Shown here one piece after another: positions 332-6,501 of a stretch of DNA of 32,113 nt. Each line of letters begins with the position of its first letter. Within the stretch, counting starts at the first letter, position 1. The translations under genes were made by a program, and so were the position numbers. The notes under the pieces were generated by a model, which saw nothing but the letters and a program-made list of their open reading frames with translations, did no database searches and was not told where the DNA came from. The stretch comes from a virus (lineage: Duplodnaviria; Heunggongvirae; Uroviricota; Caudoviricetes): IMG/VR virus record IMGVR_UViG_2721755710_000003; one strand, 5' to 3'.

Positions 332-2317
332 GAGCGTGTGAATCAGCGCCATGAAATGAACACCGACGCGTCGTTGCTGTTTCTGGCAGAGCGTGACCAC
401 TATGCGCGCCTGCCGGGAATGAATGACAAGGAGCTGAAAAAGTTTGCCGCCCGTATCTCATCGCAGCTTTTCATGATGTATGAGGAACTCAGCGATGCCT
501 GGGTGGATGCACATGGCGAAAAAGAATCGCTGTTTACGGATGAGGCGCAGGCTCACCTCTATGGTCATGTTGCTGGCGCTGCACGTGCTTTCAATATTTC
601 CCCTCTCTACTGGAAAAAATACCGTAAAGGACAGATGACCACGAGGCAGGCATATTCTGCCATTGCCCGTCTGTTTAACGATGAGTGGTGGACTCATCAG
701 CTTAAAGGCCAGCGTATGCGCTGGCATGAGGCGTTACTGATTGCTGTCGGGGAGGTGAATAAAGACCGTTCTCCTTATGCCAGTAAACATGCCATTCGTG
801 ATGTGCGTGCACGCCGCCAGGCAAATCTGGAATTTCTTAAATCGTGTGACCTTGAAAACAGGGAAACCGGCGAGCGCATCGACCTTATCAGTAAGGTGAT
901 GGGCAGTATTTCTAATCCTGAAATTCGCCGGATGGAGCTGATGAACACCATTGCCGGTATTGAGCGTTACGCCGCCTCAGAGGGTGATGTGGGGATGTTT
1001 ATCACGCTGACCGCGCCGTCAAAGTATCACCCGACACGTCAGGTTGGAAAAGGCGAAAATAAAACCGTCCAGCTTAATCACGGCTGGAATGATGAGGCAT
1101 TTAATCCAAAGGATGCGCAGCGTTATCTCTGCCGTATCTGGAGCCTGATGCGCACGGCATTCAAGGATAATGATTTACAGGTCTACGGTTTGCGAGTCGT
1201 CGAGCCACACCACGACGGAACGCCGCACTGGCATATGATGCTTTTTTGTAATCCACGCCAGCGTAACCAGATTATCGAAATCATGCGCCGCTATGCGCTC
1301 AAAGAGGATGGCGACGAAAGAGGAGCCGCGCGAAACCGTTTTCAGGCAAAACACCTTAACCGGGGCGGTGCTGCGGGATATATCGCGAAATACATTTCAA
1401 AAAATATCGACGGCTATGCACTGGATGGTCAGCTCGATAACGATACCGGCAGACCGCTGAAAGATACTGCGGCGGCTGTTACCGCATGGGCGTCAACGTG
1501 GCGCATCCCGCAATTTAAAACGGTTGGCCTGCCGACAATGGGAGCTTACCGTGAGCTACGTAAATTGCCTCGCGGCGTCAGCATTGCTGATGAATTTGAC
1601 GAACGCGTGGAGGCTGCACGCGCCGCCGCAGACAGTGGCGATTTTGCGTTGTATATCAGCGCGCAGGGCGGGGCAAATGTCCCGCGCGATTGTCAGACTG
1701 TCAGGGTCGCCCGTAGCCCGTCGGATGACGTTAACGAATACGAGGAAGAAGTCGAGAGAGTGGTCGGCATTTACGCGCCGCATCTCGGCGCGCGTCATAT
1801 TCATATCACCAGAACGACGGACTGGCGCATTGTGCCGAAAGTTCCGGTCGTTGAGCCCTTGACTTTAAAAAGCGGCATCGCCGCGCCTCGGAGTCCTGTC
1901 AATAACTGTGGAAAGCTCACCGGTGGTGATACTTCGTTACCGGCTCCCACACCTTCTGAACACGCCGCAGCAGTGCTTAATCTGGTTGATGACGGTGTTA
2001 TCGAATGGAATGACCCGGAGGTCGTGAGGGCGCTCAGGGGCGCATTAAAATACGGGCTGAGAACACCAAATCGTCAGCAGAGAAACGGAAGCCCGTTAAA
2101 ACCACATGAAATTGCACCATCGGCCAGACTGACCCGGTCGGAAAGAATGCAAATTACCCGTATCCGCGTTGACCTTGCTCAGAACGGTATCAGGCCGCAG
2201 CGATGGGAGCTTGAGGCGCTGGCGCGTGGCGCGACCGTAAATTATGACGGGAAAAAATTCACGTATCCGGTCGCTGATGAGTGGCCGGGATTCTCAACAG
2301 TAATGGCGCGGATATAA
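332..2317 (+). pseudogene. A: Replication initiation protein GpA (rolling-circle HUH endonuclease), 5'-truncated by the IS1 insertion; about 100 N-terminal codons missing
   Basis: The frame is open from the IS1 boundary, with the first possible start a GTG at 338 and no ATG. The translation contains the HUH motif (PHWHMMLF) and the tyrosine motif (GYIAKYISKN). At about 660 aa it is shorter than the roughly 760 aa I recall for P2 GpA. Confidence 0.85.
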
Positions 2318-2673
2318 TGACAAAGATTCACAAAGTAAAGCTGCACGCAAGATATTTCAACCTTGTGCTGGAGGGAAAAGAAACGCACAGAATTTAGGGG
2401 GATAGCCGTTATCATGTGTATGAAGCACTTGAAATGTATCTGCATCACTTGGGAGTGTGTCAACGGGGAATTTCCATCTATGTGATTTTTTGAGAGCAAT
2501 GCAGTGAAGATAAAGATACTTATTATAAATCAATGTGATAGATGGTGCCTCGCAAACGTAAATGATAGTTTTGAAGCTTCAGGGCTGATGTCGTTCATAA
2601 GACTATGTTTACGCTATCATTTATGATAAAAATAATTAATTTTTATCATAAAGATTCAACAGAGGATATGTTG

Positions 2674-4179
2674 ATGAATCAACTAAAATCAATGAATATC
2701 AATAAGTTACTTTTGGATGTTGATAACCCTCGTTTCCCGACGTCAGCAGAAAATCAGCGTGATGCTATTGCCAAGATGCTTGACTTGCAGTACGACCGCA
2801 TTTATCGCTTGGCTAAAGATATTGCTTCGAAAGGTTTAGATCCGTCTGAAAACATATTAGTTTATCCTAGTGAAGAGGAATCTGGCTTTTTCGTCGTTGC
2901 TGAAGGTAATCGTCGAGTTACAGCCCTTAAACTTTTACACTCTCCTAGACTTGCACCAACAGAAAAAGCACGGAAAGCTTTTGAAAAACTTAAGATTACT
3001 CAGCTTAAAGATATTAATGTTATAGATAACTGCGTTCTTTTTGACGATGATGAATATGAGCATTGGGTCAATTTAAAGCATACTGGTCAAAATGCTGGAG
3101 TTGGAAGAGTTGAATGGACTGCAACAGAAAAAGCACGACATCTGGCTAGGATGGGTAAGCAGTCATTTGGTAATCAAATACTTACATTTATAGAGTTCAA
3201 TACTGATTTATATAAAGAGATAATTGCTAAAAAAAGACTTTTAAAAATCACAAACATCACGCGTCTTTTTGGTGATTTAAAGGTGAGGGATTATTTTAAT
3301 TTAAAAAGCATTAATGGAGTTCTATACTCATATCAGCCTTATGAACGTTTTTGTGTACAATTAAAAAATATTTTAGATGTAATGATTGAAGAGGATGATA
3401 AAGGTAAGGCTTGTTTTACTGTTAATAGGATTCGTAGCCAAGATGACAGGGTTACATTTATTATTGAACAAAAAATAAAACCTTCAGAATCTCTTTTAGA
3501 TAAGCCGTGGAGTTTACTAGAGCCTAAATCTTTTCTTACAGAGAAAAAACATGATTCTATTGACAAAAATGATGCATCTGTGAGTGTAAAGAAAGTAGGT
3601 CTTTCAGAAGGTGATGCCTTAAAGAATACAGGTGTGGATAAACAGGAAGATGATTATTCTAGACATGTAGGCACAGAAGAGAGTAAATCTAAAGTTTCGG
3701 GTACGGAACAGAATAAAAACAAGGGAAAAACTCCTCCTAAAGTAGATCGTAATGTGTTGGTGCCATCTTATGTGAAATTTAATTTTAGAGGGCATAAGAA
3801 ATGCTCTAGAATATTTAATGAGCTTAAGTCGCATCTGACATTTGATAACACCCCTAATGCTATCTCAATATTGTTGAGAATATTTATAGATCTCTCTGTA
3901 AGCACTTTTGTTGAAGAAAACAAGTTACAATTTAAGGAACCACATAGAACTCCAGGGCTTCATGATAAGGTTAAAATGTGTGCTAATTTCCTTCGGGAAA
4001 ATAAAAAGATGACGGGGAGTCAATGTACGGCTGTAATAACTTTCTCGAGCCAAATAACTAAACATGATGGTTCATTGCAGCAGTATGTACATAACCCACA
4101 CTTAATTCCCTCAAAAGAGGCTGTCAACACTGAGTGGGATAACTTTGAGTTGTTATTAAGCCTTATTTGGAGTGAGTGA
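2674..4179 (+). CDS. Accessory protein with an N-terminal ParB/Srx-superfamily domain (DUF262/DGQHR-like), a K/E/S-rich linker and an uncharacterised C-terminal domain
   Basis: The translation has INKLLLDVDNPRF followed by GFFVVAEGNRRVTALKLL, the ParB-type box pattern. The gene is strongly AT-rich. AGAGGA at 2661-2666 sits 7 nt upstream of the ATG at 2674; the ORF is open from 2605, with an alternative ATG at 2668, so the exact start is uncertain. Confidence 0.6.
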   Translation: MNQLKSMNINKLLLDVDNPRFPTSAENQRDAIAKMLDLQYDRIYRLAKDIASKGLDPSENILVYPSEEESGFFVVAEGNRRVTALKLLHSPRLAPTEKARKAFEKLKITQLKDINVIDNCVLFDDDEYEHWVNLKHTGQNAGVGRVEWTATEKARHLARMGKQSFGNQILTFIEFNTDLYKEIIAKKRLLKITNITRLFGDLKVRDYFNLKSINGVLYSYQPYERFCVQLKNILDVMIEEDDKGKACFTVNRIRSQDDRVTFIIEQKIKPSESLLDKPWSLLEPKSFLTEKKHDSIDKNDASVSVKKVGLSEGDALKNTGVDKQEDDYSRHVGTEESKSKVSGTEQNKNKGKTPPKVDRNVLVPSYVKFNFRGHKKCSRIFNELKSHLTFDNTPNAISILLRIFIDLSVSTFVEENKLQFKEPHRTPGLHDKVKMCANFLRENKKMTGSQCTAVITFSSQITKHDGSLQQYVHNPHLIPSKEAVNTEWDNFELLLSLIWSE

Positions 4180-4191
4180 GATTTGTCTACA

Positions 4192-4211
4192 TCTGGACAT
4201 GGATGTCCAGA
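4192..4211. promoter_or_regulatory. Perfect 9-bp inverted repeat with 2-bp spacer (TCTGGACAT gg ATGTCCAGA) in the 69-bp gap between the two cassette genes; candidate operator
   Basis: Read directly from the sequence. It lies about 37 bp upstream of the methyltransferase ATG and just upstream of its GAGAGGGA ribosome-binding site. Confidence 0.4.
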
Positions 4212-4248
4212 AACTGATAAACTACAAAATCAGGAATGAGAGGGATTT

Positions 4249-5133
4249 ATGAAATTTTATACTCCATTAAGATACCCCGGCGGGAAAGGTAAGTTATCTT
4301 ACTTTTTAAAAGATGTTATTGAAAAAAACTCGTTGAATGATGGAGCATATGCAGAACCTTACGCTGGTGGTGCAGGGGTGGCTTTAGAATTATTATTGGA
4401 AGAGTATGTCCGTAAAATCTATATAAATGATGCAGATTTTGCTGTTTATTCTTTTTGGTCATCTGTTGTTAGTGATACTGATGAGCTTTGCCGACTTATT
4501 AGCCGAGCAAAGATAGATATGGATGAATGGTCTTTTCATCGCTATGTTATTTCGAATCCTTCTGAGTTTACTAAGCTTGAGGTTGGCTTTGCTGCGTTTT
4601 TCTTAAATAGAACAAATCGTTCAGGTATTCTCAAGGCGGGGGTTATAGGCGGGAAATCACAAAATGGAAAATGGAAAATGGATGTTCGCTTTAACAGGGC
4701 GGATTTAATTTCAAGAATTGAGAAGATAGCAAATTATAATCAAAGAATAGTAGTAACTAATCTGGATGCTTTGGATTTTCTTGATGCCTTGAATTTTATG
4801 GATAATATGGGAAAGGTGGATAAAAATAAAATTCTTTTGTATTTGGATCCTCCTTACTATATTAAAGGGCAAGGGCTTTACAGGAATTTTTATGAGCATG
4901 ATGACCATGTATTGGTTATGAAGAAACTCACAGAAATTAATTTCCCAAATTGGCTTGTTTCTTATGATAACGCTAAGGAAATTAAAGATATTTATAATGG
5001 ATTTCCGCAAGTTGAGTATTCATTGCAATATACAGCGCATCTCAAAAAATCTGGAGAGGAAGTGATGATTTTTTCTCCTGAAATAATTATTCCTAATACC
5101 CTGAAAGGGGTCTCAATGCCAACTTGCGCCTGA
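4249..5133 (+). CDS. Dam-family (D12 class) N6-adenine DNA methyltransferase, 294 aa
   Basis: Motifs align with E. coli Dam as I recall it: PLRYPGGKGK (Dam LKWAGGK), EPYAGGAGV (Dam EPFVGAGSV), FFLNRTNRSG (Dam FLYLNRYGYNG) and the catalytic LYLDPPYY (DPPY). The gene is AT-rich with a GAGAGGGA ribosome-binding site. Confidence 0.8.
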   Translation: MKFYTPLRYPGGKGKLSYFLKDVIEKNSLNDGAYAEPYAGGAGVALELLLEEYVRKIYINDADFAVYSFWSSVVSDTDELCRLISRAKIDMDEWSFHRYVISNPSEFTKLEVGFAAFFLNRTNRSGILKAGVIGGKSQNGKWKMDVRFNRADLISRIEKIANYNQRIVVTNLDALDFLDALNFMDNMGKVDKNKILLYLDPPYYIKGQGLYRNFYEHDDHVLVMKKLTEINFPNWLVSYDNAKEIKDIYNGFPQVEYSLQYTAHLKKSGEEVMIFSPEIIIPNTLKGVSMPTCA

Positions 5134-5280
5134 TTTTACTTATTTTTTGTCAGTAAGTAATTAGTTTGGTGCATTTATTTGCATTCATTTTTAAATGCCA
5201 GTTCTGGTATCTAACATCAGTGCTGGCGCATTCTAACCATTACTGCTGCACTGCATTTAAAGCCCTGCATGAAGCGGGCG

Positions 5281-5299
5281 GGCGAGGCGGGGAAAGCAC
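5281..5299. other. cos: Phage cos site (19-nt cohesive-end sequence GGCGAGGCGGGGAAAGCAC)
   Basis: Exact match to the P2 cohesive-end sequence as I recall it, located between the accessory cassette and the 3' end of Q, where cos lies in P2. Confidence 0.8.
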
Positions 5300-5466
5300 T
5301 GCGCGCTGACGGTGGTGCTGATTGTATTTTTTCAGCGTCTCAGCGCGTCGTGACGGCACTTAGTCTGCCCGTTGAGGCGTTGTGTGTCTGCGGGGTGTTT
5401 TGTGCGGTGGTGAGCGTGTGAGGGGGGATGACGGGGTGTAAAAAAGCCGCCCGCAGGCGGCGATGT

Positions 5467-6501
5467 TCAGTCGTTGTCAGTGTCCAGTGAGTAGTTTTTA
5501 AAGCGGATGACCTCCTGACCGAGCCAGCCGTTTATCTCGCGGATCCTGTCCTGTAACGGGATAAGCTCATTGCGGACAAAGACCTTTGCCACTTTCTCAA
5601 TATCACCCAGCGACCCGACGTTCTCCGGCTTGCCACCCATCAACTGAAAGGGGATGCGGTGCGCGTCCAGCAGGTCAGCGGCGCTGGCTTTTTTGATATT
5701 AAAAAAATCGTCCTTCGTCGCCACTTCACTGAGGGGGATAATTTTAATGCCGTCGGCTTTCCCCTGTGGGGCATAGAGAAACAGGTTTTTAAAGTTGTTG
5801 CGGCCTTTCGACTTGACCATGTTTTCGCGAAGCATTTCGATATCGTTGCGATCCTGCACGGCATCGGTGACGTACATGATGTATCCGGCATGTGCGCCAT
5901 TTTCGTAATACTTGCGGCGGAACAACGTGGCCGACTCATTCAGCCAGGCAGAGTTAAGGGCGCTGAGATATTCCGGCAGGCCGTACAGCTCCTGATTAAT
6001 ATCCGGCTCCAGCAGGTGAAACACGGAGCCGGGCGCGAAGGCTGTCGGCTCGTTGAAGGACGGCACCCACCAGTAAACATCCTCTTCCACGCCACGGCGG
6101 GTATATTTTGCCGGTGAGGTTTCCAGTCTGATGACCTTACCGGTGGTGCTGTAACGCTTTTCCAGAAACGCATTACCGAACACCAGAAAATCCAGCACAA
6201 AGCGGCTGAAATCCTGCTGGGAAAGCCATGGATGCGGGATAAATGTCGAGGCCAGAATATTGCGTTTGACGTAAATCGGCGAGCTGTGATGCACGGCAGC
6301 CCGCAGGCTTTTTGCCAGACCGGTAAAGCTGACCGGTGGCTCATACCATCTGCCGTTACTGATGCACTCGACGTAATCCAGAATGTCACGGCGGTCGAGT
6401 ACCGGCACCGGCTCACCAAAGGTGAATGCCTCCATTTTCGGGCCGCTGGCGGTCATTGTTTTTGCCGCAGGTTGCGGTGTTTTCCCTTTTTTCTTGCTCA
6501 T
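5467..6501 (-). CDS. Q: Portal protein GpQ, 344 aa
   Basis: Translation and length match P2 GpQ as I recall it. Its start overlaps the stop of P by 1 nt. Confidence 0.93.
   Translation of the reverse strand: MSKKKGKTPQPAAKTMTASGPKMEAFTFGEPVPVLDRRDILDYVECISNGRWYEPPVSFTGLAKSLRAAVHHSSPIYVKRNILASTFIPHPWLSQQDFSRFVLDFLVFGNAFLEKRYSTTGKVIRLETSPAKYTRRGVEEDVYWWVPSFNEPTAFAPGSVFHLLEPDINQELYGLPEYLSALNSAWLNESATLFRRKYYENGAHAGYIMYVTDAVQDRNDIEMLRENMVKSKGRNNFKNLFLYAPQGKADGIKIIPLSEVATKDDFFNIKKASAADLLDAHRIPFQLMGGKPENVGSLGDIEKVAKVFVRNELIPLQDRIREINGWLGQEVIRFKNYSLDTDND

What the first reader, a model, noticed from the sequence alone, without database searches (positions are those of the whole stretch)
4192..4211. 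Perfect palindrome between the two cassette genes
TCTGGACAT-gg-ATGTCCAGA sits in the short gap just upstream of the methyltransferase ribosome-binding site. Restriction-modification-like modules often use such operators to time methylase versus effector expression. It could also form an intercistronic RNA hairpin that modulates translation of the downstream gene. No regulator gene is obvious in the cassette, so the binding factor, if any, may be one of the two proteins themselves.
Basis: seen in the sequence. Interest (0 to 1): 0.4.

Follow-up and report, generated by a model that had tools for sequence, protein, structure and literature searches.

The report
Conserved stem-loop between two defence genes
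The palindrome is real and is conserved, with compensating base changes, in related copies of a two-gene phage-defence cassette (PD-Lambda-5), where it most likely forms an RNA hairpin that helps set how much protective methylase is made, possibly through the host regulator CsrA.

Summary
Observation confirmed. TCTGGACAT-GG-ATGTCCAGA lies at 4192-4211, in the 69-nt gap between a ParB-like gene (2674-4179) and a Dam-type methyltransferase gene (4249-5133). These two genes are the PD-Lambda-5 defence cassette, in the hotspot of a P2-like prophage.

A 9-bp perfect inverted repeat is expected about once per 32 kb, so the palindrome alone is not significant. Comparison makes it significant. In 18 distinct relatives (ParB-like protein 64-100% identical):
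- the gap is nearly always 69 nt;
- the stem is kept through compensatory and G:U changes;
- the centre reads ACA-N-GGA-N-GU, varying only at the two N positions.

That is the published CsrA/RsmE RNA consensus, with GGA in the loop of a hairpin.

The left arm also serves as the -35 hexamer (TGGACA) of an extended -10 promoter for the methylase. That promoter is conserved across the family. In many relatives the hairpin is followed by a T-run, like a terminator; in this window it is not.

Best reading: a sense-strand RNA stem-loop derived from a terminator, probably bound by CsrA. A DNA operator for the ParB/KorB-like protein remains a live rival. I class it as a new member of a known kind, of moderate interest. 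Nothing here was tested experimentally.

The parts
2674..4179 (+). PD-Lambda-5_A gene: ParB-N-terminal-domain protein, 501 aa. The true start is at 2674, not at the 2605 ATG of the longest ORF.
   Evidence: PADLOC PD-Lambda-5_A, E 1.7e-167, match starting at residue 24 of the long ORF. RefSeq CDS start maps to 2674. AlphaFold model pLDDT 78; best PDB fold matches are ParB (7bm8) and KorB (8qa8/8qa9), with weak E-values.
4180..4248 (+). Intercistronic control region, 69 nt.
   Evidence: The 69-nt length is kept in 12 of 18 distinct clade I relatives; the rest are 62-74 nt. The 151 nt around it are 100% identical in all 21 E. coli genomes that carry the cassette.
4192..4211 (+). The palindrome. 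Predicted RNA stem-loop: 8-bp stem 4192-4199 with 4204-4211, loop UGGA at 4200-4203.
   Evidence: Present in both the MFE and the centroid fold. Hairpin alone -11.4 kcal/mol. RNAalifold predicts the same 8 pairs on 18 relatives; pair types CG8/AU5, GU8/AU5/GC4, UA10/UG3/CG2/GC1. 86% of cells are paired, against 30-50% with slid partners.
4197..4206 (+). ACAUGGAUGU: matches the CsrA/RsmE RNA consensus (A/U)CANGGANG(U/A), and 10 of 12 positions of the SELEX consensus RUACARGGAUGU. The GGA at 4201-4203 is in the loop.
   Evidence: Only match in the window. Invariant columns in 18 relatives are A4197, C4198, A4199, G4201, A4203, G4205 and T4206; G4202 is nearly invariant; the variable columns are 4200 and 4204, the two N positions. 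Consensus taken from PMC4347634, PMC2896534, PMC5864733 and PMC6849547.
4194..4199 (+). TGGACA: -35-like hexamer of the internal methylase promoter. It lies inside the left arm of the palindrome.
   Evidence: Promoter scan: TGGACA-18-TAAACT preceded by TG. TGGACA, TAGACA or TGGCCA sits 17-18 nt upstream of the -10 element in relatives.
4215..4223 (+). Extended -10 element TGaTAAACT.
   Evidence: TGnTAnnnT is present in 49 of 72 unique gaps of 40 nt or more, against 9.6 (maximum 16) in shuffles.
4214..4233 (+). Second small hairpin: CUGAU (4214-4218) with AUCAG (4229-4233).
   Evidence: Part of it appears in the centroid fold. The outer pair runs UA7/UG7/CG2 across relatives, and 93% of cells are paired.
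4233..4245 (+). Two further GGA motifs (4233-4235 and 4243-4245). The second lies inside the methylase Shine-Dalgarno GAGAGGGA (4238-4245).
   Evidence: Sequence. The Shine-Dalgarno GGA is kept in most clade I relatives but not all.
4249..5133 (+). PD-Lambda-5_B gene: D12-class (Dam-like) N6-adenine DNA methyltransferase, 294 aa.
   Evidence: Pfam PF02086, E 3.6e-16. PADLOC PD-Lambda-5_B, E 1.4e-121.
2657..2673 (+). Leader of gene A: CAACA-GAGGAUA-UGUUG, with the Shine-Dalgarno GGA between short complementary arms. A tentative second CsrA-type site.
   Evidence: ACAGAGGAUGU is conserved in clade I leaders, but RNAalifold predicts no consensus structure there.

Best explanation
The palindrome acts mainly as RNA. 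When the ParB-like gene is transcribed through its stop codon, positions 4192-4211 fold into an 8-bp stem capped by the loop N-G-G-A.

The same position in related cassettes holds hairpins that look like intrinsic terminators. The element is therefore best seen as a terminator-derived stem-loop that marks the 3' end of the effector cistron and limits or shapes read-through into the methylase gene. In this E. coli copy the U-tract is lost, so I expect it to be leaky.

Its loop and closing pairs (ACAUGGAUGU) equal the high-affinity binding consensus of the host regulator CsrA. With further GGA motifs at 4233-4235 and in the methylase Shine-Dalgarno (4243-4245), a CsrA dimer could bridge the hairpin and the ribosome-binding site and repress methylase translation from the bicistronic mRNA. 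The colicin E7 cei-cel intercistronic T1 stem-loop is shown to work this way.

The same DNA has a second use. Its left arm is the -35 hexamer of a conserved extended -10 promoter (TGGACA-18-TGaTAAACT) that gives the methylase its own short-leader transcript lacking the hairpin.

Shown here: conservation, covariation, motif identity and promoter conservation. Inferred: that the hairpin forms in vivo, that CsrA binds it, and the direction of any effect on the methylase.
For: 1. Conservation with compensation. In 18 distinct relatives (ParB-like protein 64-100% identical; hosts include E. coli, Enterobacter, Klebsiella, Salmonella, Cronobacter and Edaphovirga), RNAalifold independently predicts the same 8 pairs. 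Pair 4193:4210 is CG in 8 and AU in 5. Pair 4195:4208 is GU in 8, AU in 5 and GC in 4. Pair 4192:4211 is UA, UG, CG or GC. Overall 86% of cells are paired, against 30-50% with slid partners; no shuffle of 500 reaches the paired fraction and 2 of 500 reach the covariation score.

2. Strand asymmetry. Wobble cells that pair only on the sense strand (G:U or U:G) number 13, against 2 A:C or C:A.

3. The centre is asymmetric yet invariant. ACA-n-G(G)A-n-GT is invariant, and only the two N positions vary (T/G/A/C and T/C/G). This equals (A/U)CANGGANG(U/A) and the SELEX consensus, in which ACA and GGA are 100% conserved and GGA lies in a hairpin loop.

4. A more distant clade (about 45% identity; best protein matches Cronobacter and Dickeya) keeps CACA-NGGAU-UGUG, with a loop one nucleotide longer. 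A longer loop is harmless for an RNA hairpin but awkward for a dimeric DNA site.

5. Hairpins in the same position in other clades have unrelated sequences and strong folds (gap MFE z-scores -3 to -6.5). Terminator-like sites occur in 11 of 72 unique gaps, against 0.83 in shuffles; with T>=4 the count is 22 of 72 against 2.1, and includes most of clade I.

6. The hairpin travels with the cassette into contexts that are not P2-like (L256, L257, L259).

7. Precedents: CsrA binds a GGA in the loop of the intercistronic T1 terminator stem-loop and a GGA at the cel Shine-Dalgarno of ColE7 (PMC2896534). Rsm/Csr controls CRISPR-Cas systems in Serratia (PMC8450108).
Against: - The conserved internal promoter places its -10 element downstream of the hairpin. 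The methylase-only transcript would therefore lack it, and CsrA control through the hairpin could act only on read-through mRNA.
- A compensatory change also preserves a DNA palindrome, so covariation alone does not separate RNA from DNA.
- The G:U excess rests on few independent events. The commonest G:U (4195:4208) is statistically compatible with independent variation of the two arms.
- One match to ACANGGANGT per window is what chance predicts (mean 0.72).
- The second GGA (4233-4235) is lost in several relatives, and the Shine-Dalgarno GGA is absent in the L090 group.
- The window copy fails the terminator scan because it has no U-tract. T-richness after the stem in relatives is partly due to the promoter itself.
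- No Rfam family matches.
- RNAalifold finds no structure in the leader of gene A.
- No binding or expression data exist for any of this.
Confidence: 0.4

Rival explanations
1. DNA operator. The palindrome is bound as double-stranded DNA by a dimer of a cassette protein, most plausibly the ParB/KorB-like protein A. Because it covers the -35 hexamer and spacer of the methylase promoter, binding represses or tunes methylase transcription.
For: - The palindrome overlaps TGGACA (-35) and the spacer of a promoter whose extended -10 is conserved family-wide.
- The best fold matches of protein A are ParB and the transcriptional repressor KorB, both of which bind palindromes.
- No other regulator is encoded.
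- The arms co-vary symmetrically.
- In clades II, III and V a palindrome also overlaps or abuts the promoter.
- Many distant relatives carry the palindromic hexamer TGGCCA at the -35 position, sometimes extended to 8-10 bp. That is too short to be an RNA hairpin.
Against: - The invariant centre GGA is asymmetric, which a symmetric dimer does not explain.
- Eight of 18 relatives are asymmetric at 4195:4208, in the direction that keeps RNA pairing.
- The related Cronobacter/Dickeya clade keeps the same motif with a centre one base longer.
- Closely related A proteins (76% identical: L261 and L187) have palindromes that share only the inner GCGTC/GACGC.
- No second copy of the site exists in the 32-kb window, allowing up to 3 mismatches.
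- The fold matches to ParB and KorB are weak (E 6.5e-3 to 4e-2), and a profile search of PDB sequences found nothing.
Confidence: 0.25
2. Plain terminator or 3'-end protective hairpin, with no specific ligand. The stem-loop only ends or stabilises the effector mRNA and insulates it from the separately promoted methylase gene. The match to the CsrA consensus is then fortuitous, or reflects the -35 hexamer and its complement.
For: - Terminator-like hairpins are enriched in homologous gaps (11 of 72 against 0.83).
- Clades II and V have long G+C-rich stems followed by T-rich tails.
- GACA and its complement TGTC are explained by the -35 hexamer plus pairing.
- The stem starts 12 nt after the stop codon, roughly where a terminating ribosome's footprint would end (my inference).
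Against: - Loop sequences of ordinary terminators drift, but here GGA is present in 18 of 18 while the first loop base takes all four values.
- The window copy has no U-tract and is not called as a terminator, yet it is 100% conserved in 21 genomes.
- The same ACA..GGA..UGU motif recurs in a distant enterobacterial clade without a strong stem.
Confidence: 0.2
3. Methylation-sensitive promoter. The palindrome contains the target of the cassette's own adenine methyltransferase, so the methylation state of the -35 region feeds back on methylase transcription, as reported for CfrBI (from memory).
For: - The methylase is active enough to require an mrr-deleted host (PMC9519451).
- The palindrome holds GAC/GTC and CAG/CTG on both strands, which are contexts reported as Mrr-sensitive (from memory).
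- Distant relatives have a short palindrome (TGGCCA) exactly at the -35 position.
Against: - The specificity of the methylase is unknown and could not be derived here.
- The idea does not explain the invariant asymmetric GGA or the G:U pattern.
- No other evidence supports it.
Confidence: 0.05
4. Chance palindrome with no function of its own.
For: About one such inverted repeat is expected per 32 kb, and about 0.7 matches to the CsrA-type pattern.
Against: Position, length of the gap, stem pairing and the core motif are all conserved across 18 distinct relatives down to 64% protein identity, while the flanking gap positions diverge.
Confidence: 0.05

Closest known systems
ColE7 cei-cel intercistronic T1 stem-loop bound by CsrA (PMC2896534)
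   Same: Both lie on a mobile element in E. coli. Both are a stem-loop just after the stop codon of the upstream gene. Both have a GGA in the loop and a second GGA at the Shine-Dalgarno of the downstream gene. Both stem-loops are terminator-like.
   Different: In ColE7, binding and repression are shown experimentally; here nothing is tested. In ColE7 the downstream gene has no promoter of its own, whereas here a conserved internal promoter overlaps the hairpin. The regulated gene here is a protective methylase, not a lysis gene.
Canonical CsrA/RsmA-RsmE sites (SELEX RUACARGGAUGU; hcnA-type (A/U)CANGGANG(U/A); glgC leader hairpin plus Shine-Dalgarno site)
   Same: The ACA and GGA cores are present and invariant. 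GGA lies in a hairpin loop. Variation is confined to the N positions. Further GGA motifs lie 32 and 42 nt downstream, within the 10-63 nt bridging range I recall from memory.
   Different: The stem (8-12 bp) is longer than typical CsrA hairpins. The site is intercistronic and upstream of the predicted methylase transcription start, not in a 5' leader.
Restriction-modification control elements (C-protein C-boxes; methylase autoregulation in SsoII, EcoRII and MspI; internal ecoRIM promoters inside ecoRIR), recalled from memory
   Same: Effector-then-methylase gene order. A separate methylase promoter lies at the end of, or after, the effector gene. A palindrome sits at that promoter.
   Different: There is no C gene. 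The methylase has no extra DNA-binding domain (294 aa, D12 domain only). The conserved centre of the palindrome is asymmetric.
ParB-parS and KorB-OB operator sites
   Same: Protein A has a ParB N-terminal domain and fold matches to ParB and KorB. The site is a palindrome next to the gene of the protein that would bind it.
   Different: parS and OB sites are symmetric through the centre, whereas this one is not. The fold matches are weak. There is only one site in 32 kb.
Rsm/Csr control of CRISPR-Cas in Serratia (PMC8450108)
   Same: A host Csr/Rsm pathway would set the expression level of an anti-phage system.
   Different: That case concerns chromosomal CRISPR-Cas operons. This one would be a prophage-borne RM-like cassette, and it is only predicted.

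Membership tests
PD-Lambda-5 defence system (the cassette that holds the palindrome) | Two adjacent genes matching the PD-Lambda-5_A and PD-Lambda-5_B models | tested here: met
   PADLOC E 1.7e-167 for A and 1.4e-121 for B. A is followed by B on the same strand in 212 of 221 homologous loci.
CsrA/RsmA binding site | GGA core with the flanking consensus (A/U)CANGGANG(U/A) or RUACARGGAUGU | tested here: met
   ACAUGGAUGU at 4197-4206. It matches 10 of 12 SELEX positions; relatives with ACAGGGAUGU or ACAAGGAUGU match 11 of 12. Invariance falls on the specified positions.
CsrA/RsmA binding site | GGA presented in the loop of a hairpin | tested here: met
   The MFE fold, the centroid fold and RNAalifold all place GGA in a tetraloop or hexaloop.
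CsrA/RsmA binding site | A second site overlapping the Shine-Dalgarno or start codon of the regulated gene | tested here: inconclusive
   GGA is present at 4233-4235 and in the Shine-Dalgarno at 4243-4245 in the window, but one or the other is missing in several relatives. GGA in a Shine-Dalgarno is common by chance.
CsrA/RsmA binding site | The site lies on the mRNA that is translated | tested here: inconclusive
   The hairpin is on read-through mRNA from gene A. It is upstream of the -10 element of the conserved internal promoter, so it is absent from a methylase-only transcript. No transcript data are available.
CsrA/RsmA binding site | Direct binding by CsrA and a csrA-dependent change in expression | not testable with these tools
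   Needs gel shifts, footprinting and reporter assays.
Intrinsic (Rho-independent) terminator | G+C-rich stem followed directly by a U-tract | tested here: not met
   The window copy is not called; its tail is AACUGAUAAACU. Homologous hairpins in relatives do meet the criterion: 11 of 72 unique gaps against 0.83 in shuffles, including L257, L090 and L098.
Sigma-70 extended -10 promoter | TGn plus a TAnnnT hexamer, with a -35-like hexamer 17-18 nt upstream, conserved in homologues | tested here: met
   TGGACA-18-TGaTAAACT. The extended -10 occurs in 49 of 72 unique gaps against 9.6 in shuffles; the -35 is TGGACA, TAGACA or TGGCCA. Activity was not measured.
C-protein/C-box control of restriction-modification systems | A small helix-turn-helix controller gene in the cassette, with its operator upstream of it | tested here: not met
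   No such gene exists: the RefSeq annotation shows only A and B, and the small ORFs in the flanks are implausible.
ParB-parS / KorB-OB type operator | A symmetric palindrome bound by the helix-turn-helix of a ParB-family protein | tested here: inconclusive
   Protein A gives ParB and KorB as top fold matches, but weakly. The centre of the palindrome is asymmetric and invariant. Binding cannot be tested here.
Rfam families | A match to any curated RNA family | tested here: not met
   Nothing near the gathering score in 2200-5600.

The most novel reading that the evidence does not exclude
The palindrome is a parS-like loading site for the ParB/KorB-like effector of PD-Lambda-5. The protein would bind its own cassette at 4192-4211, repress the methylase promoter, and possibly load there as a nucleotide-dependent clamp. 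One DNA site would then couple self-recognition, methylase dosage and activation of the defence protein.

A second reading is less exotic and more likely (about 0.35). Host CsrA directly gates a prophage-borne RM-like defence system through this hairpin, tying the effector-to-methylase balance to growth state.
Probability: 0.1. Interest if true: 0.8.

Novelty: new member of a known kind. Interest (0 to 1): 0.45.

Why it matters
PD-Lambda-5 is a broadly protective but mechanistically uncharacterised system. Its methylase is harmful enough to require an mrr-deleted host (PMC9519451). How such a compact effector-plus-methylase pair avoids self-damage when it enters a new cell is unknown.

This work finds a conserved regulatory module in the gap: a stem-loop, an internal methylase promoter and GGA motifs. 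That gives a concrete and cheaply testable handle on the question.

If CsrA is the ligand, this would be a case of a mobile defence cassette plugging into a host global post-transcriptional regulator. Such control is so far documented for CRISPR-Cas in Serratia and for a colicin lysis gene.

If the ParB-like protein is the ligand, the finding would say something about how that protein recognises DNA.

Tried and rejected
- Rfam scan of 2200-5600 at E<=10: only noise.
- Profile search of the A family against PDB sequences: no hit. Foldseek gave only weak ParB/KorB/sulfiredoxin matches.
- Search for further copies of the palindrome in the window, allowing up to 3 mismatches: none beyond itself. 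A multi-site operator network is therefore not supported.
- Search for a controller (C-protein-like) gene in the cassette flanks: none.
- The near-identical E. coli copies (21 genomes) are uninformative, because the 151 nt around the gap are 100% identical.
- RNAalifold on the leader of gene A: no consensus structure, so the idea of a structured second CsrA hairpin at A's ribosome-binding site is not supported, although the sequence ACAGAGGAUGU is conserved.
- A sigma-54 reading of the TGGCCA boxes in distant relatives was rejected by hand, because the spacing does not fit TGGCAC-N5-TTGC.
- FokI-like GGATG or DrdI-like GAC-N6-GTC as the methylase target: considered and left as speculation. GGATG is not invariant (GGAGG, GGACG and GGAAT occur in relatives), and the methylase specificity is unknown.
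- Literature search for a PD-Lambda-5 mechanism or regulation: 18 papers mention the system, none in title or abstract. I read only the Vassallo paper, which says nothing about the intergenic region.

Full report
**The observation**

The sequence TCTGGACAT-GG-ATGTCCAGA is at 4192-4211, exactly as described. It lies in a 69-nt gap (4180-4248). The gap begins after the TGA stop of the upstream gene (4177-4179) and ends before the ATG of the downstream gene (4249). The ribosome-binding site GAGAGGGA is at 4238-4245.

On its own the palindrome is not statistically remarkable. The window holds one perfect inverted repeat of at least 9 bp with a spacer of 4 nt or less, and Markov simulations of the window give 0.77. 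Everything therefore depends on context and comparison.

**Context**

The window is a P2-like prophage. It carries a replication gene A homologue (338-2317), portal, terminase, scaffold and capsid genes. The two genes flanking the palindrome sit in the known P2 hotspot between the replication gene and the portal gene.

Both genes match the PADLOC models of PD-Lambda-5, with E-values of 1.7e-167 and 1.4e-121. Vassallo et al. found this system by functional selection. They describe it as a compacted prophage RM+Abi system and had to clone it in an mrr-deleted host (PMC9519451).

- **Gene A** encodes a protein with a ParB N-terminal domain. Its real start is 2674, not the 2605 ATG of the longest ORF.
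- **Gene B** encodes a D12-class (Dam-like) adenine methyltransferase.
- No controller gene is present.
- The literature held here says nothing about the intergenic region.

**Comparison with related cassettes**

I collected 265 loci encoding relatives of protein A from genomes, metagenomes, viral contigs and specific assemblies. In 212 of the 221 loci that include the end of gene A, a B homologue follows on the same strand.

The gap length is bimodal. It is 10 nt or less in 85 loci, which suggests translational coupling with no palindrome. It is about 60-100 nt in 89 loci.

Among the 72 unique gaps of 40 nt or more:
- 49 contain an extended -10 element TGnTAnnnT, against 9.6 (maximum 16) in shuffles;
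- a hexamer TGGACA, TAGACA or TGGCCA usually lies 17-18 nt upstream of it.

The window has TGGACA (4194-4199), an 18-nt spacer, and TGaTAAACT (4215-4223). The methylase therefore very probably has its own promoter, and the left arm of the palindrome is that promoter's -35 hexamer.

**The closest clade (clade I)**

Clade I has 18 distinct gap sequences, with protein A 64-100% identical to the window's. Best-matching protein records or contig titles name E. coli, Enterobacter asburiae, Klebsiella pneumoniae, Salmonella enterica, Cronobacter malonaticus and Edaphovirga cremea; several members come from metagenomes with no host named. The gap is 69 nt in most members.

RNAalifold, with no guidance, predicts the same 8-bp stem with a 4-nt loop.

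| Pair (window coordinates) | Pair types across the 18 sequences |
|---|---|
| 4193:4210 | C:G 8, A:U 5 (double change) |
| 4195:4208 | G:U 8, A:U 5, G:C 4 |
| 4192:4211 | U:A, U:G, C:G, G:C |

One lineage (L090 and L098) extends the stem to 11-12 bp. Overall 86% of cells pair, against 30-50% when partners are slid. No shuffle of 500 reaches the paired fraction, and 2 of 500 reach the covariation score.

A second small hairpin (4214-4218 with 4229-4233) shows a U:A, U:G, C:G series.

The hairpin stays with the cassette in contexts that are not P2-like: a plasmid-like contig with ccdAB, an integrase island, and a contig carrying a ThsB-TIR gene and a small-terminase gene.

**RNA or DNA?**

Compensatory changes preserve both an RNA stem and a DNA palindrome, so they do not decide the question. 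Three features lean towards RNA on the sense strand.

1. The centre is invariant yet asymmetric. The invariant positions are A4197, C4198, A4199, G4201, A4203, G4205 and T4206, with G4202 nearly invariant. Positions 4200 (T/G/A/C) and 4204 (T/C/G) vary. A symmetric dimer on DNA does not explain an invariant GGA in the middle.
2. Non-Watson-Crick cells are mostly G:U or U:G (13). A:C or C:A, which would be the wobble on the other strand, number 2. These are few independent events, so this is only suggestive.
3. A more distant clade keeps CACA-NGGAU-UGUG with a loop one nucleotide longer. Its protein A is about 45% identical, and its best protein matches are Cronobacter sakazakii and Dickeya dianthicola. 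A longer loop is harmless for a hairpin and awkward for a two-half-site operator.

**The CsrA match**

The invariant pattern ACA-N-GGA-N-GU is the published recognition sequence of CsrA/RsmE, (A/U)CANGGANG(U/A) (PMC5864733, PMC6849547). It also fits the E. coli CsrA SELEX consensus RUACARGGAUGU, in which ACA and GGA are 100% conserved and GGA lies in a hairpin loop (PMC4347634, PMC2896534). The window matches 10 of 12 positions. Relatives with ACAGGGAUGU or ACAAGGAUGU match 11 of 12.

Further GGA motifs lie at 4233-4235 and inside the methylase Shine-Dalgarno at 4243-4245.

The ColE7 operon offers a precise precedent. There CsrA binds a GGA in the loop of the intercistronic T1 terminator stem-loop and a GGA at the cel Shine-Dalgarno, and represses translation (PMC2896534). 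Rsm/Csr control of an immune system is also documented, for CRISPR-Cas in Serratia (PMC8450108).

**The terminator aspect**

Other clades carry hairpins of unrelated sequence at the same place, 3-12 nt after the stop codon of gene A. They have long G+C-rich stems, and gap MFE z-scores of -3 to -6.5.

Using the same criteria as the scan tool, 11 of 72 unique gaps have a terminator-like site, against 0.83 in shuffles. With four T's allowed, 22 of 72 qualify against 2.1, including most of clade I.

The window's own copy does not qualify. Its tail is AACUGAUAAACU. I read the element as terminator-derived and, in this E. coli variant, leaky.

**Caveats**

- The hairpin lies upstream of the -10 element of the conserved internal promoter. 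A methylase-only transcript would lack it, so CsrA could act through it only on read-through mRNA, or on the 3' end of the effector mRNA.
- One match to the CsrA-type pattern per 32 kb is what chance predicts. The argument rests on position, on the hairpin context and on the pattern of invariance.
- The downstream GGA motifs are not kept in all relatives.
- The leader of gene A carries a conserved ACAGAGGAUGU around its Shine-Dalgarno, but no consensus structure is predicted there.

**The rival operator model**

The operator model keeps real weight. The palindrome covers the -35 hexamer and spacer of the methylase promoter. Protein A gives ParB (7bm8) and the repressor KorB (8qa8/8qa9) as its best fold matches, though weakly, with E-values of 6.5e-3 to 4e-2. 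Distant relatives have a short palindromic TGGCCA at the -35 position, which cannot be an RNA hairpin.

**Verdict**

The element is regulatory and conserved, and the RNA-hairpin alternative is favoured over the operator.
- My probabilities: about 0.4 for a terminator-derived stem-loop with CsrA as the most likely ligand; about 0.2 for the same hairpin with no specific ligand; about 0.25 for a DNA operator; about 0.05 for a methylation-sensitive promoter; about 0.05 for chance.
- It is a new member of known kinds of element, in a defence system whose regulation has not been described.
- Interest is moderate. The decisive experiments are simple: transcript mapping, CsrA and protein A gel shifts, and G:U versus A:C and loop mutants.

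Noticed in passing
window 2623-2649: A second perfect inverted repeat, A+T-rich with 11-bp arms (ATGATAAAAAT-AATTA-ATTTTTATCAT). It overlaps the predicted promoter of gene A (TTTACG-17-AATAAT). It is perfect only in the E. coli variant; relatives have an imperfect version (ATGATAAAAA...TTTTGACCAT).
   Followed up: partly
window 2605-2674: The longest ORF of the ParB-like gene starts at 2605. The family models begin at residue 24 of that ORF, and RefSeq annotates the start at 2674, with the Shine-Dalgarno GAGGA at 2662-2666.
   Followed up: yes
window 2657-2673: The leader of gene A reads CAACA-GAGGAUA-UGUUG. This is conserved as ACAGAGGAUGUGUUG in clade I and has the same ACA..GGA..UGU flavour as the intercistronic hairpin. 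RNAalifold predicts no consensus structure there.
   Followed up: partly
window 2317-2398 and about 5243-5466: The cassette appears to be inserted into a DUF3850/ASCH gene of the P2 backbone. RefSeq annotates a truncated DUF3850 pseudogene right after the replication gene, and homology to other E. coli P2-like prophages resumes at about 5243.
   Followed up: partly
loci L002-L009, L013, L022, L029, L034, L044, L077, L079 and others (gaps between A and B): Distant relatives (protein A 28-50% identical, from many phyla) carry the palindromic hexamer TGGCCA exactly at the -35 position of the internal promoter. It is sometimes extended to 8-10 bp with co-varying flanks (CTGGCCAG, ATGGCCAT, GTGGCCAC, TATGGCCATA). 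It is too short for an RNA hairpin and remains unexplained. It may be a protein or methylation site.
   Followed up: partly
all fetched loci: There are two architectures for the gene pair: tight coupling (gap 10 nt or less, 85 loci), or a 60-100-nt gap with its own promoter (89 loci). A is followed by B in 212 of 221 loci.
   Followed up: yes
window 4168-4173 with 4261-4266: The MFE and centroid folds include a long-range helix, UGGAGU with ACUCCA, that encloses the whole intercistronic region together with the methylase start codon. Both sides are coding, so conservation would be hard to interpret.
   Followed up: no
protein A (window 2674-4179): The AlphaFold model shows a ParB/KorB-like N-terminal half, a disordered Lys/Glu/Ser-rich linker (residues 289-353), and an all-helical C-terminal domain (about 360-500) with invariant Q470, Y471, H473 and N474. 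No protein of solved structure matches at the sequence level; the fold search was run on the whole model only and its hits are ParB/KorB/sulfiredoxin-type.
   Followed up: partly
L198 and L199 (IMGVR_UViG_3300034072_002256): One 75-kb viral contig carries two copies of the A homologue, about 39 kb apart.
   Followed up: no
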